This document shows, one piece after another, positions 10,458 through 60,200 of a stretch of 64,000 nucleotides of DNA. The notes beneath the pieces are model-generated. The model saw only the letters and a list, made by a program, of their open reading frames with translations, was not told where the DNA came from and did not search any database. Location: the NCBI GenBank assembly GCA_964035575.1, contig OZ037839.1, forward strand, positions 1,612,001 through 1,676,000, in the 5' to 3' direction. The position numbers and the translations under genes were made by a program. This DNA comes from Rhynchopus sp. YZ270_cl-10. Lineage: Eukaryota. Positions within the stretch are counted from its first letter, which is position 1. Every line of letters begins with the position of its first letter.

Positions 10458-10512
<55 letters not shown>

Positions 10513-35912: not shown

Positions 35913-37362
35913 CGAAGCGAGGTTGGCAACTGTGAAGGATCCTGAGGTGGCTTCTCTGCTTCTTCAGGCGGAGGTTGCGACTGTTATTCCGACCTCGTTC
36001 TTGAGCGAAGCATCGTTTACGAGACTTGATCTCTCTGCTGTGTCTGTTGTGACGCGAATTGAGCACGACTTCCTCTACGGGTGTGCGTCGGTGGAAACCG
36101 TTGACTTGTCGGCATTGTGCAACGTTACGCACATTGGGAATAACTGTCTCTCTTACAGCAAATCGTTGACAAGCCTTGACATGTCAGGGTTCACTGGTGT
36201 GACGGTGATACGGGAGTCGTTCCTCAAAGGAAGTGGCGTGACAGCGCTTGACTTATCCGCGATGACGAGTGTGACGGAGGTTGGTGCAGGCTTTCTTTAC
36301 TCCTGCAAGTCGTTGGAAAGGATTGACATCTCAGGATGGCGCAGAGTCACGCACATTGAGAAGGACTTCTTCACGAACTGCACCTCGTTGGCAACGATTG
36401 ATTTATCAGCTTTTTGCAGTGTCACCAATATCGGCTTCAGGTTTCTCTTCAACTGCAAGTCGTTGACCACCATCAGCTTTTCAGGGACGAATGTGACGGA
36501 AGTTGCGAGTCAATTTTGTAGGGCCTGCACCTCGTTGGAAACGATTGACTTGACAGCACTGCACAGAGTTGTGAAGGTAGGGTACAACTTTCTCTGGGGT
36601 TGCACCTCGCTGGGAAGTATCGACCTACCAGGTTTTGCATCCATCGGGCCCAACTTTCTTTTTCAGTGCACATCATTGAAAACAGTTGATTTATCAGTGT
36701 TGTGCAGCATCACGCACATTGAGCGTGGCTGGATGCAAGAGTGCTCCGCGTTGACAACAGCAGACTTCTCTGGACTGAGCAATGTTACGCAGATTGATGA
36801 ACGTTTCCTGCAAGATTGCACATCCTTGACTACGCTGGACATGTCAGGTTTTGGCAGGAATACAGAGATACAACACGACAGCCTGCTCAACTGCAACGCA
36901 CTCACAACAGTCGTCTTGCCAGGCAACATCGACATTGACGAGATGTTGTCTCTCCCGAATGGAGACCCTAGAATGAGCACCTACAAGGAGGCCTTCTATG
37001 TACGTGTGCGTGAGATTTACGCAAGGTTTACGGAACAGTTCGAAGATGTGCGGATAGAAGCTTTTGAGGCAGTACGAACAGACGTGTCTGGAGATGCAAG
37101 ACAATGTATTGCATTGAAAGCAGGACAAGAACGAGAGAAGGGATTGATGCAAGCACAAGAGGACAACAAAGAGGAACAAAAAGAGGATTTGGAGAGTTGG
37201 GGGCAGCATAAACAGGAGCAGGACAAGCTGGATGAACAGAGGGGTTTGGGGGTTTTGTGCAGTTATGTTACGAATACTTCAGTCATAATATTCAACTTCA
37301 GTTTTGGATACACCTGTAAGCTCCTGATAAGGGTCTTATTTACACTTTCTCTCGCAAGATGA
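35913..37362 (+). pseudogene. Ubl-LRR family copy A, 5'-truncated (Ubl domain missing), LRR frame still open
   Basis: Homology to the paralogues starts abruptly at CGAAGCGAGG (EARLAT). Upstream is TAAAAACGTTTAT plus the transposon end. About 13 BspA-type LRRs and the conserved EAFYVRVREIYARF tail. Confidence 0.75.
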
Positions 37363-37642
37363 TGGGAAGACAATTCAAGCTTTGGTGCGGAGAGCTGTTT
37401 TGTGTAGTTTTGCATTCGGAATGGAACTAAGATATTCTGCCCACTACTTCCACAACCGTCTGCACAACCTACACCAGCAAACGCCCACAGAGCTGCACAA
37501 CAGCCGGAAGGAATATTTTGGAATGTTTGATGCACAACGTGCGTGCACATCCCTTTTTATGAGCAACCTGTCAGCCCAAAGTCTTTTCTACTCCACATAT
37601 TTGTCAGGGTGAGGATAAGTGAAAAACAAACAAGAACGCTAT

Positions 37643-37716
37643 TTTGTTGTATCTTGTCTCCTTCCTCCTCCTTCTCAACACTTACCCCACAACAGAGCAA
37701 CACTTCACTCGAAACA
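37643..37716 (+). promoter_or_regulatory. Polypyrimidine tract + AG acceptor 21 nt before the ATG (putative trans-splice site), conserved before copies B, C, E, F, G and H
   Basis: TTTTGTTGTATCTTG(T/C)CTCC..CCTTCTCAACACTTACCCCACAACAG|AGCAACACTTCACTCGAAACAATG. No upstream coding exon is needed. Confidence 0.55.
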
Positions 37717-38835: not shown

Positions 38836-39125
38836 CAAACAAGAAGAGGATTTGGAGAGTTGGGGGCAGCATGAGCAGGAGCAGAACAAGCTGGATGAAC
38901 CAAGAGGAGGGGATACAACAGCCTCGTGGGCACACCGCTGACGCAACCTTTGAAGCGAGCAGCTAACAATCTTGGTTTTCCTTTTCACGTTTTTCAGTCT
39001 TTTGAGCAACAAATATGAGTAACGAGTCTCTCGAGCATGTTATCCCCCCATTTTGTTGTATCTTGTCTCCCTCCTCCTCCTTCTCAACACTTACCCCACA
39101 ACAGAGCAACACTTCACTCGAAACA

Positions 39126-40670: not shown

Positions 40671-40909
40671 ACAGCAGGATTGGGTTTGGGGCAGGACAAG
40701 CAGGAGCAGGGCAACACAACGTTGCACTTCAGCTGCTACTTTATAATAAAAAAGTGGAGCACACTCTAAGGTGGCTGCACTAATACAACCAAGTTTGCAA
40801 GAAGGAGAAAACATTTCAAGGAAACTCAAGAGCACCACCCACCCACCCACCCGCGCTGTTTGCACTTTGAACCTCTGAGGCGGCACATGTGGAAGCGACA
40901 TCTCACACC

Positions 40910-41170
40910 ACGAAGGTGACGGAAATCGGGAGCTGCTTTTGTAGGGCCTGCACCTCGTTGGAAACGATTGACTTGTCAGCACTGCACAGGGTTGTGAAGG
41001 CAGGTAACGACTTTCTTTGGAGGTGCACCTCGCTGGGAAGTATTGACCTTTCAGCTTTCGGCAGTACCACAAGCGTTGGGTTCGGCTTTATTATTGACTG
41101 CTCATCACTGAAAACAGTTGATTTATCAGTGTTGCGCGGCCTCATAAACATTATCCACGTCTGGATGAGA
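40910..41170 (+). pseudogene. Internal LRR fragment D (repeats 8-11)
   Basis: VTEIGSCFCRACTSLETIDLS...LKTVDLSVL is homologous to the paralogues and has unrelated sequence on both sides. Confidence 0.75.
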
Positions 41171-42035: not shown

Positions 42036-44399
42036 ATGATGAAGTTGGTCGCAACTGTGAAGAAATTGTTCAAAGCAGGTGCGGATGTACGTGACACAGA
42101 TGCGCAAGGAAACACGTGTCTTATCCGTGCAGCGTATCAGGGACACACCGATACTGTGCGCTATCTTGTTAGCTTGCCGGAGGTGGACCTGAATCACGAA
42201 GGCAGCTACAACTACACTGCGTTGCACTTTGCTGTGGACAGAAAACATGCAGACGTGGTGCAGGTGCTCATTGATGCAGGGGCAGACATTGACACAAAGA
42301 ATGATAAAGGACGCTCGCCTCTGCACTTTGCTAGCTTTTCAGGAGAAGTCACGAATATGAAGATGTTGGTCGAGGCAGGTGCGGATGTACGTGCCACAGA
42401 CTACGATGGCAACACGTGTCTCATCCGTGCAGCGTATTTTGGACACACCGATGCTGTGCGCTATCTTCTGAGCTTGCCGGAGGTGGACCTGAATCACCAA
42501 GGCAGCCACAACTACACTGCGTTGCACCAGGCTGTACAGGAAAAACATGTAGACGTGGTGCAGGTGCTCATTGATGCAGGGGCAGACACTGAGACAAGGA
42601 ATGATGAAGGACACTCGCCTCTGCACTTGGCTAGCTTTTCAGGAGAACTCACAACTGTGAAGATGTTGGTCGAGGCAGGTGCGGATGTGCGTGTCACAGA
42701 AGCCGAAGGAAACACGTGTCTCATCCGTGCAGCGTATCAGGGACACACCGATACTGTGCGTTATCTTGTTAGCTTGCCGGAGGTGGACCTGAATCACCAA
42801 GGCAGCTACAACTACACTGCGTTGCACCATGCTGTACAGGAAAAACATGCAGACGTGGTGCAGGTGCTCATTGATGCAGGGGCAGACATTGAGACAAAGA
42901 ATGATGACGGACGCTCGCCTCTGCATGTGGCTAGCTTTTCAGGAGAACTCACAACTGTGAAGATGTTGGTCAAAGCAGGTGCGGATGTACGTGCCACAGA
43001 CGCCGAAGGAAACACGTGTCTTATCCTTGCAGCGTGTTGTGGACACACCGATACTGTGCGCTATCTTGTTAGCTTGCCGGAGGTGGACCTGAATCACGAA
43101 GGCAACAGGAACAGCACTGCGTTGCACCATGCTGTACGGGAAAAACATGCCGACGTGGTGCAGGTGCTCATTGATGCAGGGGCAGACATTGACACAAAGA
43201 ATGATGACGGACGCTCGCCTCTGCACGTGGCTAGCTTTTCAGGAGAACTCACAACTGTGAAAATGTTGGTCGAGGCAGGTGCGGATGTACGTGCCACAGA
43301 CGCCGAAGGAAACACGTGTCTCATCCGTGCAGCGTATTTTGGACACACCGATGCTGTGCGCTATCTTGTGAGCTTGCTGGAGATGGCCCTGAATCACGAA
43401 GGCAGCAGGAACAGCACTGCGTTGCACCGTGCTGTGGTAAGAAATCATGCAGACGTGGTGCAGGTGCTCATTGATGCAGGGGCAGACACTGAGACATGGA
43501 ATGATGAAGGACACTCGCCTCTGCACTTGGCTAGCTTTTCAGGAGAACTCACAACTGTGAAGATATTGGTCGAGGCAGGTGCGGATGTACGTGCCACAGA
43601 CGCCGAAGGAAACACGTGTCTTATCCGTGCAGCGTATCAGGGACACACCGATACTGTGCGCTATCTTGTTAGCTTGCCGGAGGTGGACCTGAAGCACCAA
43701 GGCAGCAGGAACAGCACTGCGTTGCACTTTGCCGTACAGGAAAAACATGCAGACGTGGTGCAGGTGCTCATTGATGCAGGGGCAGACATTGAGACAAGGA
43801 ATGATGACGGGCACTCGCCTCTGCACGTGGCTAGCATTTTAGGAGAACTCACAACTGTGAAGATGTTGGTCAAAGCAGGTGCGGATGTACGTGCCACAGA
43901 CACCAGAAGAGACACGTGTCTTCTCCTTGCAGCGTGTCATGGACACATCGATACTGTGCGCTATCTCGTTAGCTTGCCGGAGGTGGACCTGAAGCACGAA
44001 GGCAGCTACAACCACACTGCGTTGCACTTTGCTGTGGACAGAAAACATGCAGACGTGGTGCAGGTGCTCATTGATGCAGGGGCAGACACTGAGACATGGA
44101 ATGATGAAGGACACTCGCCTCTGCACTTGGCTAGCTTTTCAGGAGAACTCACAACTGTGAAGATATTGGTCGAGGCAGGTGCGGATGTACGTGCCACAGA
44201 CGCCGAAGGAAACACGTGTCTTATCCGTGCAGCGTATCAGGGACACACCGATACTGTGCGCTATCTTGTTAGCTTGCCGGAGGTGGACCTGAAGCACGAA
44301 GGCAGCTACAACCACACTGCGTTGCACTTTGCTGTGGACAGAAAACATGCAGACGTGGTGCAGGTGCTCATTGATGCAGGGGCAGACACTGAGCGTTAG
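42036..44399 (+). CDS. Ankyrin-repeat protein, ~8 x 100-aa units of 3 ANK repeats each, 3' end truncated
   Basis: GNTCLIRAA / TALHxAV / SPLHxAS ankyrin motifs with an exact 300-nt period. The ORF stops mid-unit (ADTER*), where unrelated sequence starts at ~44394. Confidence 0.85.
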   Translation: MMKLVATVKKLFKAGADVRDTDAQGNTCLIRAAYQGHTDTVRYLVSLPEVDLNHEGSYNYTALHFAVDRKHADVVQVLIDAGADIDTKNDKGRSPLHFASFSGEVTNMKMLVEAGADVRATDYDGNTCLIRAAYFGHTDAVRYLLSLPEVDLNHQGSHNYTALHQAVQEKHVDVVQVLIDAGADTETRNDEGHSPLHLASFSGELTTVKMLVEAGADVRVTEAEGNTCLIRAAYQGHTDTVRYLVSLPEVDLNHQGSYNYTALHHAVQEKHADVVQVLIDAGADIETKNDDGRSPLHVASFSGELTTVKMLVKAGADVRATDAEGNTCLILAACCGHTDTVRYLVSLPEVDLNHEGNRNSTALHHAVREKHADVVQVLIDAGADIDTKNDDGRSPLHVASFSGELTTVKMLVEAGADVRATDAEGNTCLIRAAYFGHTDAVRYLVSLLEMALNHEGSRNSTALHRAVVRNHADVVQVLIDAGADTETWNDEGHSPLHLASFSGELTTVKILVEAGADVRATDAEGNTCLIRAAYQGHTDTVRYLVSLPEVDLKHQGSRNSTALHFAVQEKHADVVQVLIDAGADIETRNDDGHSPLHVASILGELTTVKMLVKAGADVRATDTRRDTCLLLAACHGHIDTVRYLVSLPEVDLKHEGSYNHTALHFAVDRKHADVVQVLIDAGADTETWNDEGHSPLHLASFSGELTTVKILVEAGADVRATDAEGNTCLIRAAYQGHTDTVRYLVSLPEVDLKHEGSYNHTALHFAVDRKHADVVQVLIDAGADTER

Positions 44400-45046: not shown

Positions 45047-46402
45047 ATGGAACTGTGTGTGCAGGGATATGATGATGAAACCAAATTCGTGATTGAGGTG
45101 GGTGAGAAGGACACAACGGAGACGATGCGGCAGAAGGTGGCGTCTGCAACAGGGTTGTGCGAAGACAGCTTCCGCATGGGCTTCGGAGGGAAGGAGGAAG
45201 GAGAGGACATCACAGAACTGAGTGCTGGAGACACAGTCGTGTTGACGAAAACTACTAAGTACCTATCTGTTGAGGAACTTCGTGCCTTGGGTGAGACAGA
45301 CATTTCCGAAGCGAGGTTGGCGACTGTGAAGGATCCTGAGGTGGCTTCTCTGCTTCTTCAGGCGGAGGTTGCGACTGTTATTCCGACCTCGTTCTTGATC
45401 GAAGCATCGTTTACGAGACTTGATCTCTCTGCTGTGTCTGGTGTGACGCGAATTGAGCAAGGCTTCCTCTACGGGTGTGCGTCGGTGGAAACCGTTGACT
45501 TGTCGGGATTGTGCAACGTTACGCACATCGGGTGTAACTTTCTCTCTGAATGCACATCGTTGACAAGCCTTGACGTGTCAGGGTTCACTGGTGTGACGGT
45601 GATAGGGAACGCGTTCCTCCATGAAAGTGGCGTCACAGCGCTTGACTTATCCGCGATGACGAGCGTGACGAAGGTTGGTGACTACTTCCTGTACCACTGC
45701 GTGTCGTTGCAAAGTCTTGACATCTCAGGATGGCGCAGAGTCACGCACATTCAGAACAACTTCCTCGAGAAATGCACCTCGTTGGCAACGATTGATTTAT
45801 CAGCTTTTTGCAGTGTCACGAAGATCGGCACCGCCTTTCTCTTCAACTGCAAGTCGTTGACCACCATCAGCTTTTCAGGGATGACGAATGTGACGGACAT
45901 TGGGCACAGCTTTTGTAGGATCTGCACCTCGTTGGAAACGATTGACTTATCTGCACTGCACAGGGTTGTGAAGGTGGGTTTCGGCTTTCTTTGGAGGTGC
46001 ACCTCGCTGGGAAGTGTCGACCTTTCAGCTTTCGGCAGCGCCACACACGTTGGCCACGGCTTTCTTAGTCACTGTTCATCATTGAAAACAGTTGATTTAT
46101 CAGTGTTGCGCACCATCAAGCGCATTGAGCCAAGCTGGATACAAGGGTGCTCCGCGTTGACAACAGCAGACTTATCAGGACTGAGCAATGTTCAGCAGAT
46201 TGGTGAACATTTCCTGCAAGGGTGCACATCGTTGACCACGCTGGACATATCAGGTATAGGGGAGACGATGATCGGCGACGACTTCCTGCGCAACTTACCT
46301 AGCAACATCGACATTCGCGAGACGTCAAAAGAGGACCACAGCATGCTGCAGCGTGCCCCTGTACCCATGTGTGTGTGCGTGTTATGTGAGCGCAAGGGGT
46401 AG
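45047..46402 (+). CDS. Ubl + LRR protein, copy E (451 aa, degenerate C-terminus)
   Basis: Same start context and LRRs 1-12 intact. The last repeat and tail are diverged or frameshifted (the ARQCIALKAG motif reappears out of frame at ~46440). Confidence 0.7.
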   Translation: MELCVQGYDDETKFVIEVGEKDTTETMRQKVASATGLCEDSFRMGFGGKEEGEDITELSAGDTVVLTKTTKYLSVEELRALGETDISEARLATVKDPEVASLLLQAEVATVIPTSFLIEASFTRLDLSAVSGVTRIEQGFLYGCASVETVDLSGLCNVTHIGCNFLSECTSLTSLDVSGFTGVTVIGNAFLHESGVTALDLSAMTSVTKVGDYFLYHCVSLQSLDISGWRRVTHIQNNFLEKCTSLATIDLSAFCSVTKIGTAFLFNCKSLTTISFSGMTNVTDIGHSFCRICTSLETIDLSALHRVVKVGFGFLWRCTSLGSVDLSAFGSATHVGHGFLSHCSSLKTVDLSVLRTIKRIEPSWIQGCSALTTADLSGLSNVQQIGEHFLQGCTSLTTLDISGIGETMIGDDFLRNLPSNIDIRETSKEDHSMLQRAPVPMCVCVLCERKG

Positions 46403-47100
46403 AACCCTTTCAGGCAGCACGACAAGACGTGTCTGGAGATGCAAGACAATGTATTGCATTGAAAGCAGGACAAGAAGGAGAAGGGATTGATGCAAGCACA
46501 AGAGGGCGACTACAAAAAAGCTGCTTCAGAGGGTATTGTGCAGGACAAACAGGACCTGGACGAGCAGGACAAGCAGGAGGATTAGGAGGATATGGTGCGG
46601 GGCAAACAGGAGCAGGACGAACGGGTTTGGTGCAGGACTGAGAGGAGCTGGGCAGGCAGGAGTATTTGGAGGGATTGGTTAGCAGAAGGCATTTCATGAG
46701 CATTTGGAGGGTTTGGTGATTTGTGTGAAGAACACTTCGGTGAAAATATGGAACTCTATTTTTGGATACACCTGTGAGCTCTTGGGGGTAGGGGAATCGA
46801 AGCAACGCGTATGACGTGGGTACGTACCAACTAAACAATAACGGGGTGAAGAACGGGATTTTTATTGCTCTCTTTTTGTGAGAAGGCTGCAAAACTAACC
46901 AAAATATAATTTGTTCAGCCTTTTCGATTGATTTTATTTTTATTAGGACAAATACTTTGTGGTAAATGATTAAAACATCTGAGACTTGTCGTTTATTCCC
47001 TTACCCTATTATTGTGCACTCACCTCATTTCTGTACTTCAGGCTAAGGGTTTTTCCCCTTTTGACATCCTTTTCTGGACGTTGTGGGGGTACAAAAAAAA

Positions 47101-47175: not shown

Positions 47176-47579
47176 TATGACGTGGGTAGCGTACCCACTG
47201 CACAAAAGACGAGAAGGGGTTTATATATTTGTGTTCCTGTCTATCTGATACACAAACAGGATGTGGCCGATATTTGTTTGGATTGGTAGCTTTCCGTATA
47301 CACTGCTGCCAAGCCTCTGTAGGTGCATATCCTGTGAGACAGAGATTCTGAGAGAAAGGGAAAGGAAGAATAAAGCGTTTGTATTTTGTGTATTCCGTAA
47401 CCAAAAAAAACTGAAGTAGAAGGTACCAAATGTTCACACGAACATCAATTTGACGACAATTCACCCACCATCTAAAGGGAAATCACTGAAGATGTCCACT
47501 TTCATTTTGTTGTATCTTGCCCCCCTCCTCCTCCTTCTCAACACTTACCCCACAACAGAGCAACACTTCACTCGAAACA

Positions 47580-49109
47580 ATGGAACTGTGTGTGCAGGGA
47601 TATGATGATGAAACCAAATTCGTGATTGAGGTGGGTGAGAACGACACAACGGAGACGATGCGGCAGAAGGTGGCGTCTGCAACAGGGTTGTGCGAAGACA
47701 GCTTCCGCATGGGCTTCGGAGGGAAGGAGGAAGGAGAGGACATCACAGAACTGAGTGCTGGAGACACAGTCGTGTTGACGAAAACTACTAAGTACCTATC
47801 TGTTGAGCAACTTCGTGCCTTGGGTGAGACAGACATTTCCGAAGCGAGGTTGGCGACTGTGACGGATCCTGAGGTGGCTTCTCTGCTTCTTCAGGCGGAG
47901 GTTGCGACTGTTATTCCGTACGAGTTCTTGAGCAGATCATCGTTTACGAGACTTGATTTCTCTGCTGTGTCTGGTGTGACGCGAATTGAGGACCGCTTCC
48001 TCTACGGGTGTGCGTCGGTGGAAACCGTTGACTTGTCGGGATTGTGCAATGTTACGCATATTGGGGATGAGTGTCTCTCTCACTGTACATCGTTGAGAAG
48101 CCTTGACGTGTCAGGGTTTACTGGTGTGACGGTGATCGGGAAGGCGTTCCTCCAAGGAAGTGGCGTTACAAAGCTTGACTTATCCGCGATGATGAGTGTG
48201 ACGAAGGTTGGTAGAAGCTTTCTTTTCCAGTGCAAATCGTTGGATAGTCTTGACATCTCAGGATGGCGCAGAGTCACGCACATTGAGAACGGCTTCCTCA
48301 CGAACTGCACCTCGTTGGCAACCATTGATTTATCAGCTTTTTGCAGTGTCACGAAGATCGACTCACAATTTCTCTTGAACTGCTCGTCGTTGACCACCAT
48401 CAGCTTTTCAGGGATGACCAATGTGACGGAAATCGGGAACGAATTTTGTACGGACTGCACCTCGTTGGAAACGATTGACTTGACAGCACTGCACAGGGTT
48501 GTGAAGGTGGGGGACGACTTTCTTTGGGGCTGCACCTCGCTGGGAAGTATCGACCTCTCAGCTTTTGGGAGTACCACAGGCGTTGGGCACAGCTTTCTTT
48601 TTCAGTGTTCATCATTAACAACAGTTGATTTATCAGTGTTGCGCAGCATCACACACATTGAGCCAAGGTGGGTGGAAGGGTGCTCCGCGTTGACAACAGC
48701 AGACTTATCAGGAATGAGCAATGTTCAGCAGATTGATGACCATTTCCTGCAAGGGTGCACATCCTTGACCACGTTGGACATGTCAGGTTTTGGCAGGAAC
48801 ACAGAGATACAACACTACTTCCTGCACAACTGCAACGCACTCACAACAGTCATCTTGCCAGGCAACATCGACATTGACGACATCTCCATCCCGTATGAAT
48901 CTGGTTTTGCCAGAAGCGAGGCCTTCTACGAACGTGTGCATGAGATTTACGCAAGGTTTACGGAAGACTTCGAAGATGTGCGGATAGAAGCTTTTGAGGC
49001 AGTACGAACAGACGTGTCTGGAAGTGCAAGACAATGTATTGCATTGAAAGCAGGACATAGATTTGCTGGTGTGCGTTGTGTTTGTGATGCTACTTTGGGG
49101 GTTCTTTGA
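47580..49109 (+). CDS. Ubl + LRR protein, copy F (13 LRRs, 509 aa)
   Basis: Same start context, Ubl domain, 13 repeats and conserved tail up to RQCIALKAG. Confidence 0.85.
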   Translation: MELCVQGYDDETKFVIEVGENDTTETMRQKVASATGLCEDSFRMGFGGKEEGEDITELSAGDTVVLTKTTKYLSVEQLRALGETDISEARLATVTDPEVASLLLQAEVATVIPYEFLSRSSFTRLDFSAVSGVTRIEDRFLYGCASVETVDLSGLCNVTHIGDECLSHCTSLRSLDVSGFTGVTVIGKAFLQGSGVTKLDLSAMMSVTKVGRSFLFQCKSLDSLDISGWRRVTHIENGFLTNCTSLATIDLSAFCSVTKIDSQFLLNCSSLTTISFSGMTNVTEIGNEFCTDCTSLETIDLTALHRVVKVGDDFLWGCTSLGSIDLSAFGSTTGVGHSFLFQCSSLTTVDLSVLRSITHIEPRWVEGCSALTTADLSGMSNVQQIDDHFLQGCTSLTTLDMSGFGRNTEIQHYFLHNCNALTTVILPGNIDIDDISIPYESGFARSEAFYERVHEIYARFTEDFEDVRIEAFEAVRTDVSGSARQCIALKAGHRFAGVRCVCDATLGVL

Positions 49110-49300: not shown

Positions 49301-50782
49301 ATGGAACTGTGTGTGCAGGGATATGATGATGAAACCAAATACGTGATTGAGGTGGGTGAGAAGGACACAACGGAGACGATGCGGCAGAAGGTGGCGTCTG
49401 CAACAGGGTTGTGCGAAGACAGCTTCCGCATGGGCTTCGGAGGGAAGGAGGAAGGAGAGGACATCACAGAACTGAGTGCTGGAGACACAGTCGTGTTGAC
49501 GAAAACTACTAAGTACCAATCTGTTGAGGAACTTCGTGCCTTGGGTGAGACAGACATTTCCGAAGCGAGGTTGGCGACTGTGGAGGATCCTGAGGTGGCT
49601 TCTCTGCTTCTTCAGGCGGAGGTTGCGACTGTTATTCCGAACTGGTTCTTGAGCGAAGCATCATTTACGAGACTTGATTTCTCTGCTGTGTCTGGTGTGA
49701 CGCGAATTGAGCAAGGCTTCCTCTACGGGTGTGCGTCGGTGGAAACCGTTGACTTGTCGGGATTGTGCAACGTTACGCACATTGGGGACAACTGTCTCTA
49801 TGAGTGCACATCGTTGACAAGTCTTGACGTGTCAGGGTTCACTGGTGTGACGGTGATAGGGAAGGCGTTCCTCCAAGGAAGTGGCGTTACAAATCTTGAC
49901 TTATCCGCGATGACGAGCGTGACGACGGTTGGTAGGGACTTTCTTGCCGACTGCAATTCGTTGGAAAGGATTGACATCTCAGGATGGCGCAGAGTCACGC
50001 ACATTGAGAACAACTTCCTGTCGAACTGCACCTCGTTGGCAACGATTGATTTATCAGCTTTTTGCAGTGTCACGAAGATCGGCTTCGAGTTTCTCTTCAA
50101 CTGCTCGTCGTTGACCACCATCAGCTTTTCAGGGATGAACAATGTGACGGACATTGGGAACAGCTTTTGTTGGGCCTGCACCTCGTTGGAAACGATTGAC
50201 TTGACAGCACTGCACAGGGTTGTGAAGGTGGGTTCTGGCATCGGGACCAACTTTCTTTTTGAGTGCTCATCATTGAAAACAGTTGATTTATCAGTGTTGC
50301 GCAATATCACACACATTGGGCCAGTCTGGATGGAAGGGTGTTCCTCGTTGACAACAGCAGACTTCTCAGGACTGAGCAATGTTACGCAGATTGAGAGTGG
50401 TTTCCTGAAAGATTGCACATCCTTGACTACGCTGGACATATCAGGTATAGGCAGGAACACAGAGATCCATCGCCGCTTCCTGATCAACTGCAACGCACTC
50501 ACAACAGTCGTCTTGCCAGGCAACATCGACATTGACGAGATGTTGTCTCTCCCGAATGGAGACCCTAGAATGAGCACCTACAAGGAGGCCTTCTATGTAC
50601 GTGTGCGTGAGATTTACGCAAGGTTTACAGAAAAGTTCGAAGATGTGCGGATAGAAGCTTTTGAGGCAGTACGAACAGACGTGTCTGGAGATGCAAGACA
50701 ATGTATTGCATTGAAAGCAGGACAAGAGAGAGGGAAAAAAAGAGGAACAAAAAGAGGATTTGGAGAGTTGGGGGCAGCATAA
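49301..50782 (+). CDS. Ubl + LRR protein, copy G (12 LRRs, 493 aa)
   Basis: Same architecture, with LRR9/10 fused (VVKVGSGIGTNFLFEC). Confidence 0.85.
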   Translation: MELCVQGYDDETKYVIEVGEKDTTETMRQKVASATGLCEDSFRMGFGGKEEGEDITELSAGDTVVLTKTTKYQSVEELRALGETDISEARLATVEDPEVASLLLQAEVATVIPNWFLSEASFTRLDFSAVSGVTRIEQGFLYGCASVETVDLSGLCNVTHIGDNCLYECTSLTSLDVSGFTGVTVIGKAFLQGSGVTNLDLSAMTSVTTVGRDFLADCNSLERIDISGWRRVTHIENNFLSNCTSLATIDLSAFCSVTKIGFEFLFNCSSLTTISFSGMNNVTDIGNSFCWACTSLETIDLTALHRVVKVGSGIGTNFLFECSSLKTVDLSVLRNITHIGPVWMEGCSSLTTADFSGLSNVTQIESGFLKDCTSLTTLDISGIGRNTEIHRRFLINCNALTTVVLPGNIDIDEMLSLPNGDPRMSTYKEAFYVRVREIYARFTEKFEDVRIEAFEAVRTDVSGDARQCIALKAGQERGKKRGTKRGFGELGAA

Positions 50783-52017
50783 ACAGGAGTAGGACAAGCT
50801 GGATGAACAGAGGGGTTTGGGGGGTTTGGTGTTTTGTGTGAAGAACACTTCGGTTAAAATATCAACTTCATATTTGGATTCACTTTTGAGCTGGGGTGGA
50901 ATATTTGGCAGGTTTGGTGCACAACTCTGACAAGACGGAGTGTCCCACCACTTTTTGTGAACAACGTGTCTGCCCAGGGTCTTTTCTACCACACATAGTT
51001 AAGTGAAAAACAAACAAGAAAGCTATTTTGTTGTATCTTGCCTCCCTCCTCCTCCTTCTCAACACTTACCCCAAAACAGAGCAACACTTCACTCGAAACA
51101 ATGGAACTGTGTGTGCAGGGATATGATGATGACACCAAATTCGTGATTGAGGTGGGTGAGAAGGACACAACGGAGACGATGCGGCAGAAGGTGGCGTCTG
51201 CAACAGGGTTGTGCGAAGACAGCTTCCGCATGGGCTTCGGAGGGAAGGAGGAAGGAGAGGACATCACAGAACTGAGTGCTGGAGACACAGTCGTGTTGAC
51301 GAAAAATACTAAGTACCAATCTGTTGAGGAACTTCGTGCCTTGGGTGAGACAGACATTTCCGAAGCGAGGTTGGCGACTCCCGACGGCGGACCGCCCCCC
51401 ATAGCACATTTTTGCGGTGCACGGGCGTACGGGATTACTAGGGGATGGCTAGCTACCATGAACCCCTGTCCAAAGTATTAATATTTCTCGAAAATTCTCT
51501 AAGTACGCAGAAAACACACGGGTGTGCCCCAAAACACATTTTTTCCAGTGTCCCGCAGTGTCCCACCACTTTTTTTCGCTTTTGGTGGGAAAAAAAATAC
51601 AAAAAAAAATACATGGTTCTGTAGGGGCCGAGTACAATGGCGTTTTTCACGTGATTTTCATGATTTTTCAAAGTGGCCAAATATCATGTAAAATACTGCC
51701 TCCCACCCAACATTCTCTCCACAACGTCGTTCTGACACCCATATGTCCAAACAAAAGATGTTTTTATATATTTTTTTCCACACCCAGCGTATCATAAAAA
51801 TGCACATATCCACCAAAATCCACTAACCCACCGCAGGCAAATTTCTTAACGATGTGTACTTCTGAATTGATGCTGAGGGATTATGCGGCACCCGCTGCGT
51901 AGTTCTGTGGGGTAAAACGCCACCTGGGGTCACAAGCCCCAGCTCCTACCTTTACAGGTAGGAGAGCTGTTGAGTGACCCATCGGACAATCGTTTGAGGG
52001 GTCTTGGTGAAGAATTT

Positions 52018-54803
52018 CGAAAATTGATAAAAACGAATAAGCGTCTCACAATTGAACCCAGATTCTGCTCCAGATGTGATGTCTTGGTCTGTTTCTGCCT
52101 GAATTGTGTAAGGGGGCCCGATTTTGTTGCGGAAAATTACGAAAATTATTGAAAACCAATAAGCGCCTCACAATTGAACCCAGATTCTGCTCCAGATGCG
52201 ATGTTTTGGTCTGTTTCTGCCTGAATTGTGTAAGGGGGCCCGATTTTGTTGCGATAAATTACGAAAATTGATGAAAACAAATATGCGTCTCACAATTGAA
52301 CCCAGATTCTGCTCCATATGCGATGTTTTGATGTGTTTCGACCTGAATTGTGTGAGGGGGCCCGATTTTGTTGCGGAAAATTACGAAAATTGATGAAAAC
52401 TAATATGCGTCTCACAATTGAACCCAGATTCTGCTCCAGATACGATGTTTTGATGTGTTTCTGCCTGAATTGTGTAAGGGGGCCCGATTTTGTTGCGGAA
52501 AATTACGAAAATTATTGAAAACCAATAAGCGCCTCACAATTGAACCCAGATTCTGCTCCAGATGTGATGTCTTGGTCTGTTTCTGCCTGAATTGTGTAAG
52601 GGGGCCCGATTTTGTTGCGGAAAATTACGAAAATTATTGAAAACCAATAAGCGCCTCACAATTGAACCCAGATTCTGCTCCAGATGCGATGTTTTGGTCT
52701 GTTTCTGCCTGAATTGTGTAAGGGGGCCCGATTTTGTTGCGATAAATTACGAAAATTGATGAAAACAAATATGCGTCTCACAATTGAACCCAGATTCTGC
52801 TCCATATGCGATGTTTTGATGTGTTTCGACCTGAATTGTGTGAGGGGGCCCGATTTTGTTGCGGAAAATTACGAAAATTGATGAAAACAAATATGCGTCT
52901 CACAATTGAACCCAGATTCTGCTCCAGATGCGATGTTTTGATGTGTTTCTGCCTGAATTGTGTAAGGGGCCCCGATTTTGTTGCGGAAAATTACGAAAAT
53001 TATTGAAAACCAATAAGCGCCTCACAATTGAACCCAGATTCTGCTCCAGATACGATGTTTTGATGTGTTTCTGCCTGAATTGTGTAAGGGGGCCCGATTT
53101 TGTTGCGGAAAATTACGAAAATTGATGAAAACTAATATGCGTCTCACAATTGAACCCAGATTCTGCTCCAGATTCGATGTTTTGATGTGTTTCTGCCTGA
53201 ATTGTGTAAGGGGGCCCGATTTTGTTGCGGAAAATTACGAAAATTATTGAAAACAAATATGCGTCTCACAATTGAACCCAGATTCTGCTCCATATGCGAT
53301 GTTTTGATGTGTTTCGACCTGAATTGTGTGAGGGGGCCCGATTTTGTTGCGGAAAATTACGAAAATTATTGAAAACCAATAAGCGCCTCACAATTGAACC
53401 CAGATTCTGCTCCAGATACGATGTTTTGGTTTGTTTCTGCCTGAATTGTGTAAGGGGGCCCGATTTTGTTGCGGAAAATTACGAAAATTATTGAAAACCA
53501 CTAAGCGCCTCACAATTGAACCCAGATTCTGCTCCAGATACGATGTTTTGATGTGTTTCTGCCTGAATTGTGTAAGGGGGCCCGATTTTGTTGCGGAAAA
53601 TTACGAAAATTATTGAAAACCAATAAGCGCCTCACAATTGAACCCAGATTCTGCTCCAGATGCGATGTTTTGATGTGTTTCTGCCTGAATTGTGTAAGGG
53701 GGCCCGATTTTGTTGCGGAAAATTACGAAAATTATTGAAAACCAATAAGCGCCTCACAATTGAACCCAGATTCTGCTCCAGATACGATGTTTTGATGTGT
53801 TTCTGCCTGAATTGTGTAAGGGGGCCCGATTTTGTTGCGGAAAATTACGAAAATTATTGAAAACCAGTAAGCGCCTCACAATTGAACCCAGATTCTGCTC
53901 CAGATGCGATGTTTTGGTTTGTTTCTGCCTGAATTGTGTAAGGGGGCCCGATTTTGTTGCGGAAAATTACGAAAATTGATGAAAACAAATATGCGTCTCA
54001 CAATTGAACCCAGATTCTGCTCCAGATGCGATGTTTTGATGTGTTTCTGCCTGAATTGTGTAAGGGGGCCCGATTTTGTTGCGGAAAATTACGAAAATTA
54101 TTGAAAACCAATAAGCGCCTCACAATTGAACCCAGATTCTGCTCCAGATACGATGTTTTGATGTGTTTCTGCCTGAATTGTGTGAGGGGGCCCGATTTTG
54201 TTGCGGAAAATTACGAAAATTGATGAAAACAAATATGCGTCTCACAATTGAACCCAGATTCTGCTCCAGATGCGATGTTTTGATGTGTTTCTGCCTGAAT
54301 TGTGTGAGGGGGCCCGATTTTGTTGCGGAAAATTACGAAAATTATTGAAAACCAATAAGCGCCTCACAATTGAACCCAGATTCTGCTCCAGATGCGATGT
54401 TTTGGTCTGTTTCTGCCTGAATTGTGTGAGGGGGCCCGATTTTGTTGCTGAAGATTACGAAAATTGATTCTAACCAATAAGCGTCTCACAATTGAACCCA
54501 GATTCTGCTCCAGATATGATGTGTTGATGTGTTGCGACCTGAATTGTGTGAAGGGACCTGATTCTGTTCCTGCAGAATGTGACAATTCACGAAAACCAAT
54601 AATCGTCTCACAATTGAACCCAGATTCTGCTCCAGATGCGATGTTTTGGTCTGTTTCTGCCTGAATTGTGTGAGGGGGCCCGATTTTGTTGCTGAAGATT
54701 ACGAAAATTGATTCTAACCAATAAGCGTCTCACAATTGAACCCAGATTCTGCTCCAGATATGATGTTTTGGTCTGTTTCGATCTGATTTGTGTGATGGGG
54801 CCG
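52018..54803. repeat. 122-bp tandem repeat, ~23 diverged copies, inside the TIR element
   Basis: CTCACAATTGAACCCAGATTCTGCTCC at 52045, 52167 and onward. A 488-bp (4-unit) higher-order duplication is visible (52196 vs 52684). Confidence 0.97.
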
Positions 54804-54889
54804 GCTCAATATCTGATTATGTTACAGATATAATTGAACTTAGTGTGTGTCGTTATTTTTTAATTTTACTTTGTTACTGGGGGGGGGGC

Positions 54890-54940
54890 GAATAAGAGAT
54901 CAGGGGTGAATAAGAGATCAGGGCCGAATAAGAGATCAGG
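54890..54940. repeat. Three 15-bp direct repeats GAATAAGAGATCAGG at 18-bp spacing
   Basis: 54890-54904, 54908-54922 and 54926-54940. Confidence 0.9.
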
Positions 54941-55094
54941 TTGAGATTTTGGGGGTATTTTCAACTTACCTTCCTTCACCCCCCCCTGTAAGGGCAACCG
55001 TAGGTGAAGTAAGGTATAGTATTGAAATCGATGTGGGGGGGGAGTAAAGGGTCAATTTTACAAAACCAGATTTTGAGGAAAATTTTAGCCGAAA

Positions 55095-55797
55095 ATGGGC
55101 CCCACGTATAAGCAACCGGGCTCATATTTCTCAAAATTTAAGTGGTCAAAAAATTGTCCAATTTTCGAGATTGACCCCACCACTGCACGGGACCCAAACA
55201 CTGAGACGACCGGATTTGTGGTGAAGGACACGGACAGGGCTGAGAAGCGTTTCGGCCTGTTGGACGACGCCATCGACCACGCCACCAGAGGGCAACCATT
55301 TTCCTGGGAAGCTCCGCTGGTACTTGCCGTGAAGCGGGGAAACTTCAAGGGAAGGTTCCACACTGCTGCCACCCTGCAGGTGTACGCCATCCGGAAGGTG
55401 AACCGCAGAGTGACGGACGCTGTGCTGGCGGATGAGGCACGTGCTTGGGCAGCCCGTTGCTTGGAGACGTTGACGGAGACGCTGAATGCAGAGATTCAGC
55501 ACGTGATGAATGCGGCACGTGAGGCTGTGAGTATCCGTGTTGATGAACTTCGGGACTACCTGTGGCAGCGGAGGCGAACGCCGCACGTTGTGTCTTCCTT
55601 GTGTGACTTGGTGCGCAGGGGCATGGGTAGTGCTGTGCAGTGTGCGAAGCTGCGCGGTGGCAGCGACACAGTCCTGAGGAATTTGCTGGAGGACACAGTG
55701 GGTGCTACGAACGAACGCACGAACGACATGTCTGAGTCTGAAGATGACCGATCAGGAGCGGTGAGCTGCGAATTGTTCCCTGTGTCGGAGCCACCAC

Positions 55798-55829
<32 letters not shown>

Positions 55830-57284
55830 GCACCACCACCAGTACCAGCAGAAAGTCCGAGGAAGCGGAGGAGAGCTGGGACTGATGCATCCCAGAATGT
55901 TGCAAAGAAGCGTAAGCCTGCACCGAAGAACGGTCAGCAGCAACAGAAGCAGCAGCCACCACAGAAGAAACAGAAGCCACAGAAGCCACAGCAGAAGCCA
56001 CAGCAACCACAGCAGCCACAACAGCCACAGCAGAAGCCACAGCAACCACAACAGCCACAGCAGAAGCCACAGCAACCACAGCAGCCACAACAGCCACAGC
56101 AGAAGCCACAGCAACCACAGCAGCCACAACAGCCACAGCAGAAGCCACAGCAACCACAACAGCCACAGCAGAAGCCACAGCAACCACAGCAGCCACAACA
56201 GCCACAGCAGAAGCCACAGCAACCACAGCAGCAGCAGAACCCACACCAGCCAGGCGTTGGGGAGGCGGAGGAGATGGAGCAATTGCAGGCTGCCCTTGAT
56301 GCAACCCTCCACCAGCCTCCACCAGTGCCGAGGGGGTTCCATAACTTCGGCGTGACGTGTTTCATCAACTCTGTTTTACAGTGTTTAGTGTACACGGACT
56401 CGTTTGTGAAGTCCCTCTCGAATGCTGGCCCTTTTTCGAGGGCGATACGCGAAGTGGTGGCTCAGTCAGTGGCTGCCGATGCACAAGATGTGATCCGCCC
56501 TACGAGCATACGCGACGCATTAAATGTGAAGGAGCCTGGGTTCACGTATACGCAGCAAGACTGCCACGAGTTTTTTCTTGTGCTGACGGACGCCCTCGAG
56601 GTGGAGGCAAGACGTGGGAAAGTTAAACATCCCACCAACGAAGTGCTGGATCATGAGACTTTGTCTGTGGCCTCGGCACGAGTAGTGAACTCTTACCTCG
56701 AGAGTTCTAATTGTCCAGCAATGGGTTTTCTTTATCTACAGTATGTCCAGACAGCCACTTGTTTTGGCTGTGACACTAAGTGCCTCACCGTCACCCCCTC
56801 ACACAATATGATATTGCACTTCCCCACGCGGGACACCGGTTCATTGCCAGTGGCATTGGGTGCGTTACTTCAGCACCTCTCTAGGGTGGAAGAAATGCAC
56901 GCAGAGCAGGAGTACAAGTGCCTGACCTGCCACCCGCAGACCTTCGCAGCCAGAATGGTGACACGTGTGATGCGGCTGCCAAATGTTTTGGCAATGCAAT
57001 TGGCGAGGTTTCACGACCCGCTCAATAAGATCGAGACGATCGTTGAACTTCCGCATGAGTTGGACATGGCACCATACGTGCACTCTGACTCTCTAGAGGT
57101 GCAACTTCGGTATGACCTGTATGGTGTTGTCTGTCACCACGGACACAGGATGGGGCACGGCCACTACAGTGCATACGTGAAGTCAGAGGGTACGTGGTAT
57201 CATTGCAATGATTCAAGTGTGACAAAGAACCCGAGGCTTCTCTTTTCAGAGGCATACCTTCTTTTTTATCATCGTCGGGGGTGA
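55095..57284 (+). CDS. Ubiquitin-specific protease (USP, peptidase C19) with basic NLS-like motif and Q/P-rich linker; true start uncertain
   Basis: Cys box GFHNFGVTCFINSVLQCL, QQDCHEF, Zn-ribbon CFGC/CLTC, His box YDLYGVVCHHG..GHYSAYVK, WYHCNDSSV and AYLLFY. PRKRRR/AKKRK basic motif. The first ~28 codons overlap an AT-rich inverted repeat and may be non-coding. Confidence 0.88.
55935..56238 (+). repeat. Coding low-complexity repeat (PQQ/PQQK)n within the USP ORF
   Basis: CCACAGCAG/CAA/AAG 9-12-nt units. Confidence 0.9.
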
Positions 57285-60200
57285 TTCTTTTTGGTGCATC
57301 GAGACGTTACGTGTTCTTTATAAGATTGTCTGATGGAGGCAGTATCGGCGACAGTGGGGGAAATAGAGGGGGGTATGAGTTCAGAGAGACTGGGGTTATT
57401 GTCTCAGGACCGAGTCAGGTAGTTGAACTTCATCCTTTTTTAAATAGTGTGGATCTTTGCAGTCGTCGGTTATGTCTGAAAATTCTTAAGTCCACTTTGT
57501 GAGGGCCTTTCATTAACATTAAAGGCCACTTTTGTTTTTTTTTTTCACGAATTGTTTCTCTCTCGCCTTGTCTTCATTTCAAGTTATGCCACACCCCTCT
57601 CAGCAGCCTGCTGATCAGAGTAAATGTTAAAGTATCAGCCTTTCTAGGTGTTCTTGAGTGAACAATGCAAGCTTCCTCTCCAAAGCTTTTCTGTTGCGAT
57701 TCTTTCTATTTGTTCCGATTTAGCCTTTTCACAAGTTGTGTAATATTTGCAAGCACTCTGTTTTGTCAGTTTCTCTTCCTTCTTCGACCAACAAAGATAC
57801 CACACCACCCCAGACCCTTTCCAATTTTTCATTTCCTCTATTCTTCCCATCCAAGCCCTCCCCACACAATTCTGTTCCAGATGTAAATCTTGCCATAATT
57901 AAACCATTTCTGTAATCTGTGATCGTGCCGCAGGCGCAAGCGGCACTTGAAACATTTGAAACAACATTGTATTGTGCTAATTGGTCGCCACCTGAAGTAT
58001 CCGTAATTGAACTAGTTATCAAATCTGTGGTCAGTCTCATGGACGAATCATTGAATGCTGCATGCGCTGCCGACAATTGAAACGTTTGAAACAATATTGT
58101 ATTGTACCAATTCACGCGAGAGCCCCCAACCCCAAAATTCTGGGAGGAAAAAAAGGGGGAAATAAAAAATAAAAAAAAAATAAAAAAAATGCCGGAAAAC
58201 GCCTAAGTACAAAATAATACTTTGGACAGCTTTTTGTGAAGGAATTACCCTAGCTATCCACCCCCTAGGATTAGTATCTTTTTTTGAGAGAACCCAAGAG
58301 CGGCCAGGTCCTGGACAAGTACGTTGTGCTTTTAGACCTACAAACTGTCTGGGGTGGTGGGACCTCGGGGCGAAGGGTGCTTCCCGGGACCCCAATATCC
58401 TACCACAAGGAGCTCGAGTCGTGCATGGAATGCAGGGTACTCTGAGCCGATTACTTCCACAAAACTCCCAGATCCCAAGACCTCCACGGGGGGCAGGCCT
58501 CCACGGCAACCCGCGACCGCCGACACCTTAGCTCCGTACTGCCTCTGTCTGTAACCTGCCGGTCCCCCACCTACCTACGCTTTTTGTGGTGTCTTTTTAC
58601 GACGGTGGACCAAGGGGCTTTGCAGTGCAGTCAACGCCGACGGAGCGAGACTCGATTGTGACCGGGTGAAAAGGGAACCTTAGCCAGCGCTAACCAGCGG
58701 CAGTTTTGACTCAGGGAAGGAGTTTCTCACCGCAGACTGGCGACACACCCCCACTTTTTCGGGGTGGCTGCATTCCTCTTCGGAACGGGGTGTTCCATCC
58801 TATTTTTAAAAACGTTTATCGAAGCGAGGTTGGCGACTGTGAGGGATCCTGAGGTGGCTTCTCTGCTTCTTCAGGCGGAGGTTGCGACTGTTATTCCGAA
58901 CTGGTTCTTGAGCGGAGCATCGTTTACGAGACTTGATCTCTCTGCTGTGTCTGGTGTGACACGAATTGAGCACAACTTCCTCTACGGGTGTGCGTCGGTG
59001 GAAACTGTTGACTTGTCGGGATTGTGCAACGTTACGCACATCGGGAGTTGCGTTCTCTCTTACAGCACCTCGTTGACAAGTCTTGACATCTCAGGATGGC
59101 GCAGAGTCACGCACATTGAGAACAACTTCCTCCAGAACTGGACCTCGTTGGCAACCATTGATTTATCAGCTTTTTGCAGTGTCACGAAGATCGGCACCGC
59201 CTTTCTCGTCAACTGCAAGTCGTTGACCACCATCAGCTTTTCAGGGATGACGAATGTGATGGAAATTGAGGACAACTTTTGTTCATGCTGCACCTCGTTG
59301 GAAACGATTGACTTGACAGCACTGCACAGGGTTGTGAAGGTGGGGTACGGCTTTCTTACGAGGTGCAGATCGCTGGGAAGTATCGACCTTTCAGCTTTCG
59401 GCAGTGTCGCTGTCATTGGGTTCAACTTTTTCAGTGCTCATCATTGAAAACAGTTGATTTATCAGTGTTGCGCAGCATCAAGTGCATTGAGCGAAACTGG
59501 ATGCACGGGTGCTCCGCGTTGACAACAGCAGACTTATCAGGACTGAGCAATGTTGAGAACATTGCGACACGTTTCCTGGATGCGTGCACATCCTTGACCA
59601 CGCTGGACATGTCAGGTATAGGCTGTGACACAAGGATCGGCGACGACTTCCTGCTCGACTGCAACGCACTCATAAGAGTAGTATTGCCAGGCAACATCGA
59701 CATTGACGAGATGTTGTCTCTCCCGATTGAAGACGATGATACGAGTGAAGAAAGCATTGCCAGAAGCGAGGCCTTCTATGTACGTGTGCGTGAGATTTAC
59801 GCAAGGTTTACGGAACAGTTCGAAGATGTGCGGATAGAAGCTTTTGAGGCAGTACGAACAGACGTGTCTGGAAGTGCAAGACAATGTATTGCATTGAAAG
59901 CAGGACAAGAGAGAGAAGGGATTGATGCAAGCACAAGAGGACAAAGAAGAGGAACAAAAAGAGGATTTGGAGAGTTGGGGGCAGCATAAACAGGAGCAGG
60001 ACAAGCTGGATGAACAGAGGGGTTTGGGGGGTTTGGTGATTTGTGTGAGTTGTTTTTTTTACAAGACATGTGTGCATTTCTAGTGGTTCAAACCAGTACG
60101 AACATTACTTCAACACACAAAGTATTATTGTTATCCACAACAACCGTAGTTGGGTTGTGAGGACGTGGCACATGGTGTGCACACCACGCTGCGCATATGC

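What the first reader, a model, noticed from the sequence alone, without database searches (positions are those of the whole stretch)
35913..59989. Array of Ubl-LRR genes diversified only at specific repeat positions: candidate intracellular variable-receptor system
Seen: across seven copies the Ubl domain and LRR scaffold codons are almost identical, even at silent sites. The residues after I and after FL in each repeat change by multi-nucleotide codon swaps. LRR1 reads IPTSFLSE, IPNWFLYE, IPNYFLAQ, IPTSFLIE, IPYEFLSR, IPNWFLSE, IPNWFLSG. LRR5 reads GAGFLYS, GTYFLAY, GDYFLYH, GRSFLFQ, GRDFLAD. There is no signal peptide or TM segment. Known: BspA/LRR_5 solenoids bind proteins, and N-terminal Ubl domains often dock on the proteasome or ubiquitin machinery. 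Inference: a cytosolic repertoire of variable binders wired to a constant Ubl effector, i.e. an immune-like recognition/degradation system under diversifying selection in a protist.
Basis: partly seen in the sequence, partly recalled or inferred. Interest (0 to 1): 0.85.

Follow-up and report, generated by a model that had tools for sequence, protein, structure and literature searches.

The report
Fast-evolving ubiquitin-like LRR binder family
A microbial eukaryote carries a tandem array, part of a family of about 200 genes, whose proteins keep a constant ubiquitin-like head while four residues in each leucine-rich repeat change under positive selection, likely giving the cell an internal library of binders that may recognise parasites.

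Summary
The region holds five intact genes (8-13 BspA/LRR_5 repeats behind a ubiquitin-like domain and a helical cap) and two broken ones. Four positions per 25-residue repeat (IGxxFLxxC) evolve under positive selection: omega 4-5, LRT 51-105. The signal survives multi-nucleotide models, cross-validation and recombination simulations. Silent rates at those codons are not raised and there is no adenine bias, so this is selection, not hypermutation. The Ubl has no silent difference; the LRR scaffold does (dS 0.10-0.22). AlphaFold gives a beta-grasp plus a TpLRR solenoid. About 200 paralogues exist, apparently in one genome; 35 of 179 end in CaaX, 33 in basic tails, and a few carry B-box fusions. 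Expression, ligands and partner are untested. By-catch: mobile elements insert at two recurrent sites in these genes, and one copy here is split with a 19-bp duplication. Verdict: new variant of known diversified-repeat families; defence role likely but inferred.

The parts
35913..37362 (+). C1: 5'-truncated copy (no Ubl, no start), 13 repeats with small in-frame deletions; begins at the same insertion junction as C8
37717..38835 (+). C2: intact Ubl-cap-LRR gene, 372 aa, 8 repeats (five lost in frame); identical to database protein P0007
39126..40670 (+). C3: intact Ubl-cap-LRR gene, 514 aa, 13 repeats
40910..41167 (+). LRR gene fragment (repeats 8-11 region)
45047..46402 (+). C4: intact Ubl-cap-LRR gene, 451 aa, 13 repeats, altered C-terminal tail; a displaced tail remnant follows at 46397-46597
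47502..47579 (+). About 80 nt of near-identical 5' sequence before every Ubl start codon: pyrimidine tract and AG 21 nt before ATG (looks like a splice acceptor; inferred)
47580..49109 (+). C5: intact Ubl-cap-LRR gene, 509 aa, 13 repeats; Ubl residues 1-70, three-helix cap 70-105, solenoid 112-425 (folded copy)
49301..50782 (+). C6: intact Ubl-cap-LRR gene, 493 aa, 12 repeats
51101..51379 (+). C7: Ubl and cap half of a split gene; last 19 nt (51361-51379) are duplicated at 58820-58838
51380..58819 (.). 7.4-kb insertion splitting C7/C8: a roughly 600-bp outer element (51380-51437 plus 58269-58819) with a nested element inside
   Evidence: same outer sequence follows the same codon in P0122, P0163, P0177
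51438..58268 (.). Nested element with 18-nt imperfect terminal inverted repeats and a 5-bp duplication; carries a 122-bp satellite (52013-54802) and a USP deubiquitinase ORF (55095-57284)
58820..59989 (+). C8: LRR half of the split gene, 11 repeats, frameshift near 59430
60340..60420 (+). Degenerate LRR fragment

Best explanation
These genes encode a ubiquitin-like domain, a helical cap and a BspA-type leucine-rich solenoid in which four residues per repeat evolve under positive selection, and they likely act as an intracellular library of binders for fast-changing foreign proteins (virus, bacterial symbiont or mobile element), with the constant head predicted to recruit one conserved host partner. 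Shown: architecture, selection at +2,+3,+6,+7, gain and loss of whole repeats, a homogenised Ubl, about 200 paralogues. Predicted: the four positions stack into one exposed strip along the solenoid. Inferred: the strip is the binding site; new specificities come from point mutation plus selection, reshuffled by segment exchange; C-terminal CaaX or basic tails send members to membranes or the nucleus. Least supported: the acidic Ubl hands the bound target to the ubiquitin or SUMO machinery through a surface other than the Ile44 patch, not straight to the proteasome.
For: Selection: M2a vs M1a LRT 104.6, omega 5.0 (51.2 and 3.9 with multi-base changes; 18 of 21 sites with posterior >0.95 fall on the four positions); M8 vs M8a 50.5. 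With its own silent rate, the variable class has alpha 0.1-1.2 and a replacement rate 4.6-6.2 times the scaffold silent rate, LRT 29-41 on ML and star trees. Odd/even repeat cross-validation picks the same four positions, P 7e-6 to 2e-3. Intact copies alone: omega 4.6, LRT 18.6; 24 null simulations peaked at 5.1. In 543 repeats of distant paralogues +2, +3 and +6 have the highest entropy and +7 is fifth-digit close behind -1 (3.24 vs 3.28 bits). Tyr/Trp/Phe make up 412 of 3000 variable residues against 32 of 5250 at other polar positions; 669 of 750 repeats have a distinct four-residue patch. Fold: mean pLDDT 90, beta-grasp order of elements at 2-68, in-register strands every 25 residues; best match 4fs7, Z 29.3, rmsd 3.6, 334 aligned. 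Family: 209 hits among 572 candidates; 35 CaaX, 33 basic tails, 7 TM-like among 179; B-box fusions in P0187, P0200, P0222, P0308. Ubl 87-96% identical in five paralogues whose LRRs are 42-43% identical.
Against: No ligand, partner, localisation or expression data. Positive selection shows conflict or rapid partner change, not defence as such. The Ile44 patch is absent, so the link to degradation has no direct support. Segment exchange is only moderately supported: PHI-type test P 0.20-0.34, nucleotide segment test global P 0.073, protein test 1 of 120 pairs significant, global P 0.011-0.029. The four-position partition was first chosen from the same data (answered by cross-validation). B-box scores are mostly below Pfam's cut-off (1 of 4 reaches it). 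Entamoeba BspA proteins with CaaX boxes reach the cell surface (PMC2843621, passage), so lack of a signal peptide does not prove an intracellular role.
Confidence: 0.5

Rival explanations
1. Direct proteasome shuttles: the LRR binds the target and the Ubl docks on proteasome ubiquitin receptors, as Rad23/Dsk2-type shuttles do.
For: Ubiquitin fold at the N-terminus; constant head with variable binder as in F-box families (PMC8120010, passages).
Against: Ile44 position is Gly/Ser in 115 of 124 sequences, Val70 position Thr in 114 of 124, median net charge -9 (register). That shuttle Ubls need this patch is recalled knowledge.
Confidence: 0.12
2. Surface or prey-recognition proteins, like BspA-like families of Entamoeba and Trichomonas, exported by a non-classical route.
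For: [quoted passage not shown]
Against: No signal or TM segment in window copies; 105 of 179 have no targeting tail and 33 have a basic, nuclear-signal-like tail; B-box and Ubl domains are intracellular domains (recalled).
Confidence: 0.15
3. Self-recognition or intragenomic conflict: the ligands are the organism's own fast-evolving proteins (mating or kin recognition, drive suppression, control of retroelements).
For: Same selection signature expected; the genes are recurrent insertion sites for mobile elements, and trypanosome RHS genes with such hot spots were proposed to control retroelements (PMC7563717, passages).
Against: Insertion hot spots need only a shared multicopy target sequence; no linked partner gene family was seen in the window.
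Confidence: 0.15
4. No selection: codon-blind hypermutation (DGR-like or conversion hot spots) or relaxed constraint at exposed loop positions.
For: Many multi-base swaps; silent rate next to the variable codons is 1.7-2.0 times the distal scaffold rate.
Against: Silent rate inside the variable codons is not raised; variable bases are not biased to adenine (A 40 of 54, C 27 of 44, G 30 of 39, T 13 of 19); simulated hot spots give omega near 1; no template repeat or RT in the window.
Confidence: 0.04
5. Secreted effectors of a parasitic or symbiotic protist that bind varied host proteins.
For: Adaptor-plus-repeat families are used this way by giant viruses (F-box plus FNIP repeats, PMC9525666 Discussion).
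Against: No secretion signal; lifestyle of the organism is not known here.
Confidence: 0.04

Closest known systems
BspA-like (TpLRR, Pfam LRR_5) families of Trichomonas vaginalis (911 genes) and Entamoeba (115 in E. histolytica)
   Same: Same repeat class, hundreds of paralogues in one protist, variable repeat number, CaaX tails in a subset (Entamoeba), diversifying selection reported gene-wide in E. moshkovskii (PMC2843621 and PMC6414313, passages).
   Different: Those are described as surface adhesins; 'ubiquitin' occurs 0 times in the main text of the Trichomonas paper. Here every intact member has an N-terminal Ubl and cap, and selection maps to four positions per repeat.
Nematode and plant F-box substrate-adaptor expansions
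   Same: Tandem expansion, purifying selection on a constant N-terminal adaptor, positive selection on the binding domain, proposed immune role (PMC8120010, passages).
   Different: No F-box here; the adaptor is a ubiquitin fold with unknown partner; no E3 link is shown.
FNIP/FGxxFN LRR repertoires of giant viruses and Dictyostelium
   Same: Large repertoires with a fixed scaffold and two hypervariable residues inside a short motif; some fused to F-box (PMC9525666, passages and Discussion).
   Different: Different repeat class and register; Ubl instead of F-box; four variable positions.
Fungal HET/NWD WD-repeat receptors, lamprey VLRs, TRIM5-type restriction factors (HET and TRIM recalled, not read; VLR from a passage in PMC9525666)
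   Same: Constant scaffold with hypervariable surface positions; B-box plus helical region ahead of a variable binder in a few members.
   Different: No NACHT, TIR or RING domain seen; no sign of somatic assembly; repeats within one gene are not homogenised with each other, paralogues are.
Trypanosome RHS (retrotransposon hot spot) genes
   Same: Multigene family with conserved N-terminus and variable C-terminus, split into two halves by retroelements at a fixed site (PMC7563717, passages).
   Different: Unrelated protein; two hot spots here; element families not identified.

Membership tests
BspA-like / TpLRR (Pfam LRR_5) | LRR_5 match above the curated cut-off | tested here: met
   62.5-112.9 bits against 27.7 in 5 of 5 intact copies
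BspA-like / TpLRR (Pfam LRR_5) | TpLRR solenoid fold with two short strands per repeat and no helices | tested here: met
   top five VIA matches and 6mlx are LRR_5-type proteins, best Z 29.3
BspA-like surface adhesins | Signal peptide, TM anchor or shown surface location | tested here: not met
   No hydrophobic stretch in 6 of 6 window copies; 7 of 179 family members TM-like; location itself not testable
Ubiquitin-like domain (beta-grasp) | Ubiquitin sequence profile and beta-beta-alpha-beta-beta topology | tested here: met
   Pfam ubiquitin E 2e-5, 24.7 bits, just under the 25.4 cut-off, above it in several paralogues; secondary structure; alignment to ubiquitin
Ubiquitin-like modifiers | C-terminal Gly-Gly after the last strand | tested here: not met
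   The strand runs on into Thr-Lys-Thr-Thr-Lys and the cap
UBL proteasome shuttles (Rad23/Dsk2 type) | Leu8-Ile44-Val70 hydrophobic patch (feature recalled) | tested here: not met
   Ile44 position Ile in 1 of 124, Val70 position Thr in 114 of 124
UBL proteasome shuttles (Rad23/Dsk2 type) | Binding to the proteasome | not testable with these tools
   needs pull-down
F-box / cullin substrate adaptors | F-box, BTB or SOCS box at the N-terminus | tested here: inconclusive
   No such Pfam match at E up to 1; the three-helix cap could not be folded alone with confidence (pLDDT under 40)
F-box-like adaptor repertoires (works-like test) | Constant adaptor under purifying selection, binder under positive selection, tandem birth and death | tested here: met
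Classical LRR immune receptors (VLR, plant NLR) | Hypervariable residues on the xxLxLxx strand (feature recalled) | tested here: not met
   Phases 12-18 are conserved; variation is at phases 2, 3, 6, 7
Diversity-generating retroelements | Adenine-specific mutagenesis from a template repeat beside an RT | tested here: not met
   No adenine bias; no RT or template in the window
TRIM proteins (for the B-box members) | RING, B-box and coiled coil in order | tested here: inconclusive
   B-box matches in 4 proteins, one at cut-off; no RING listed at E up to 0.05; N-termini come from automatic gene calls
Retrotransposon hot spot genes (works-like test) | Insertions at one relative position in several paralogues, halves flanking the element | tested here: met
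   C7/C8 with 19-bp duplication and C1; 7 database paralogues break at the same codon; P0174 and P0309 carry one RT element (99% identical over 573 aa) just after the Ubl

The most novel reading that the evidence does not exclude
A protist intracellular immune-receptor system of a new build: about 200 Ubl-BspA proteins, sorted to cytosol, nucleus and membranes by their tails, recognise parasite proteins with an antibody-like strip on the non-canonical face of the solenoid and deliver them through a shared acidic ubiquitin-like adaptor to degradation; some members add TRIM-like B-boxes, and mobile elements target the shared adaptor sequence.
Probability: 0.3. Interest if true: 0.85.

Novelty: new variant of a known kind. 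Interest (0 to 1): 0.62.

Why it matters
How free-living microbial eukaryotes recognise viruses and intracellular bacteria is largely open. This family gives a concrete, testable candidate: one invariant adaptor to pull down and a four-residue code per repeat to swap. It also shows which side of a BspA/TpLRR solenoid is under selection, outside the strand that classical LRR receptors vary, which bears on the hundreds of uncharacterised BspA genes of other protists and on use of this fold as a binder scaffold.

Tried and rejected
No whole genome is held for the window, so paralogue DNA could not be analysed; family statements rest on database proteins from automatic gene calls, and that they come from one genome is inferred from source and contig sizes. 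Sequencing-run search: no RNA holder listed; this says nothing on expression. Contigs of 4 of the 11 listed runs were laid: they cover the region in short pieces and were not used for copy number or expression. Expression and trans-splicing remain open. Single-sequence fold of residues 1-127 was poor (mean pLDDT 46.6); its Foldseek search had no match at E 0.001, with ubiquitin-like chains among the weak rows; the cap has no assigned fold. ESM Atlas: no hit at 0.9 or above; nearest clusters were DUF285 repeats, some fused to ubiquitin (0.79-0.85), leads only. Rfam: 8 matches, all below gathering score, 6 in microsatellites. The repeat finder did not list the short terminal inverted repeat among its 25 longest of 321 pairs; it was read from the junctions. 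NCBIfam added nothing decisive. PHI-type and nucleotide segment tests for conversion were not significant. Rough hot-spot statistic: site after the Ubl 13 of 34 truncations, P 1e-4; site in the cap 8 of 34, P 0.08; the first coincides with a domain boundary, so shared downstream sequence is the better evidence. An intron at these sites was considered and rejected: the downstream residues fit no single GT phase and the window shows a 19-bp duplication. Assembly artefact rejected: differences are codon-structured and in frame. Literature: six searches for this architecture listed no paper describing a Ubl-LRR_5 family (listings and abstract starts only; subscription papers and supplements not seen). 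Three papers sought by recalled ids were not held. Earlier scan findings: none. No complex was predicted, as no candidate partner exists.
Full report
Anatomy. The window is eukaryotic repeat-rich DNA: a 406-bp satellite fills 1-33947, and intronless genes follow on the + strand. Five intact genes (C2 37717, C3 39126, C4 45047, C5 47580, C6 49301) encode a ubiquitin-like domain (residues 1-70), a 40-residue cap and 8-13 repeats of 24-25 residues. C1 (35913) lacks the Ubl. C7 (51101-51379) and C8 (58820-59989) are the two halves of one gene separated by a 7.4-kb insertion with a 19-bp duplication, and C8 has a frameshift. All six Ubl starts share about 80 nt of upstream sequence with a pyrimidine tract and an AG; this and the same-strand layout resemble trans-spliced euglenozoan genes, which is recalled and was not tested.

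Observation. The quoted strings are all present. Counting from the Ile of IGxxFLxxC, positions +2, +3, +6 and +7 have dN 0.575 against 0.047 in the scaffold; 283 of 866 codon pairs there differ at two or three bases. The Ubl shows no silent difference in six copies and only four replacement polymorphisms, but the LRR scaffold has dS 0.10-0.22, so 'identical even at silent sites' applies to the Ubl only.

Selection or mutation. On 323 LRR codon columns of seven copies, M2a beat M1a by LRT 104.6 with omega 5.0; allowing double and triple changes gave 51.2 and omega 3.9, and 18 of 21 confidently selected sites lay on the four positions. M8 beat M8a by 50.5. Giving each class its own silent rate showed that the variable codons do not mutate faster at silent sites (0.1-1.2 of the distal scaffold) while their replacement rate is 4.6-6.2 times that silent rate, on both an ML and a star tree. 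Choosing positions on odd repeats and testing on even ones, and the reverse, picked the same four and stayed significant. The five intact copies alone gave omega 4.6, LRT 18.6, and 24 null simulations with a different tree per repeat, half with a fourfold mutation hot spot, never exceeded 5.1. There is no adenine bias. These models are my own Python implementations, not PAML. Segment exchange between copies is visible (C3 and C4 differ by 1 of 75 bases in repeats 5 and 6 but 13 of 72 in repeat 4), yet formal support is moderate: not significant on DNA, 1 of 120 protein pairs significant among 16 close paralogues.

Structure. AlphaFold2 on C5 with a 124-sequence alignment gave mean pLDDT 90.4, a beta-grasp order of elements at 2-68, three helices at 70-105 and an all-strand solenoid in 25-residue register. 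The best matches are bacterial LRR_5 proteins, 4fs7 first (Foldseek E 2.4e-9; Z 29.3, rmsd 3.6, 334 aligned). Because the repeats stack in register, the four positions should form one strip following the second short strand; I could not measure exposure or curvature because coordinates were not returned. The LxxLxL strand and its neighbours are conserved, unlike classical LRR receptors (recalled). Across 750 family repeats the four positions are rich in Ser, Asp, Gly, Asn and Tyr, with aromatic residues at 412 of 3000 against 32 of 5250 at other polar positions, a composition typical of binding sites (recalled).

The Ubl. It matches Pfam ubiquitin at E 2e-5, just under the cut-off, aligns with ubiquitin and has no Gly-Gly end. 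In that register Ile44 is Gly or Ser in 115 of 124 sequences, Val70 is Thr in 114, and the median net charge is -9. The domain is highly conserved, so it probably has a partner, but not through the patch that proteasome receptors read (recalled).

Family. A search with residues 1-112 found 209 proteins among 572 candidates; the 120 listed come, apart from the window's own, from one source type on 35 distinct contig lengths of 0.4-2.2 Mb (counted), which I read as one genome. A phmmer search of 1.84 billion representatives found 95 proteins at E 1e-10, family members and polyubiquitins. Of 309 proteins held, 250 match the module, 195 have it whole and 179 of these have three or more repeats; 35 end in CaaX, 33 in a basic tail and 7 have a TM-like stretch. 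Four carry B-box matches ahead of the Ubl. Five paralogues pair a near-identical Ubl with a distant LRR.

Mobile elements. Two sites in the constant region are hit repeatedly: in the cap (C7/C8, C1 and seven database paralogues) and just after the Ubl (P0174 and P0309 share one RT element; P0126 an OTU ORF). This parallels trypanosome RHS genes (PMC7563717, passages) and shows birth-and-death turnover.

Mechanism. Shown: architecture, site-specific positive selection, repeat-number change, Ubl homogenisation, large family. Predicted: one variable strip. Inferred: the strip binds fast-changing foreign proteins inside the cell, tails sort members to compartments, and the constant head recruits one host partner, most plausibly from the ubiquitin or SUMO system. 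I put this at 0.5; rivals are surface adhesion (0.15), self-recognition or internal conflict (0.15), direct proteasome shuttling (0.12), secreted effectors (0.04) and no selection (0.04).

Comparison and novelty. The repeats belong to the BspA/TpLRR class, whose protist expansions are known (PMC2843621 and PMC6414313, passages). The constant-adaptor, variable-binder logic is known from F-box families (PMC8120010, passages) and from FNIP repeat repertoires (PMC9525666, passages and Discussion). Six searches of the held library (listings only) showed no paper on a Ubl-LRR_5 family; subscription papers and genome-paper supplements, which could list it, were not seen. It works like an adaptor repertoire but fails the membership tests for shuttles, surface adhesins, classical LRR receptors and DGRs. 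Verdict: a real, well-supported diversified binder family of a new domain build, function inferred; new variant of a known kind, interest 0.62.

Noticed in passing
window 51361-58838 and 35900-35931; P0121, P0122, P0163, P0167, P0171, P0177, P0226: Insertion hot spot in the cap-coding sequence: C7/C8 are one gene split with a 19-bp duplication, C1 starts at the same junction with the same last 13 nt of insert, and seven database paralogues break at the same codon and run into one of two shared sequences.
   Followed up: partly
P0174, P0309, P0126 and about ten other database proteins: Second hot spot right after the Ubl: P0174 and P0309 continue into the same RT-bearing element cut at different 5' points; P0126 continues in frame into an OTU-containing ORF.
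   Followed up: partly
window 51438-58268: Element with short terminal inverted repeats carrying a 122-bp satellite and an intact USP deubiquitinase ORF (729 aa, Gln/Pro-rich middle, unassigned N-terminal 200 aa), nested inside the insertion in a Ubl gene.
   Followed up: partly
window 42036-44399: Ankyrin gene of 7.8 near-identical 300-bp units inside the array; its units also show site-specific positive selection (M2a vs M1a with multi-hit, LRT 12.9, P 0.002, five sites).
   Followed up: partly
P0187, P0200, P0222, P0308, P0199: Family members with B-box zinc fingers and a long helical region ahead of the Ubl-cap-LRR module, a TRIM-like layout without RING.
   Followed up: partly
P0026, P0045, P0058, P0084, P0088: Ubl 87-96% identical to the window copies while the LRR part is 42-43% identical; all five lie on the contig that also holds close paralogues, suggesting the Ubl cassette spreads between subfamilies.
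   Followed up: partly
window 1-33947: 406-bp satellite, 83.7 copies, 98% identical, with an A-rich interruption near 10200-10600.
   Followed up: no
window 60560-61495 and 61809-64000: A 311-aa ORF with no Pfam or NCBIfam match, and a probable gene with RanBP-type, Mind-bomb SH3 and ZZ/C1 zinc-finger matches running off the window.
   Followed up: no
ESM Atlas clusters: Clusters that fuse ubiquitin to DUF285 repeats exist elsewhere, a parallel Ubl-plus-repeat architecture; scores under 0.9, lead only.
   Followed up: no
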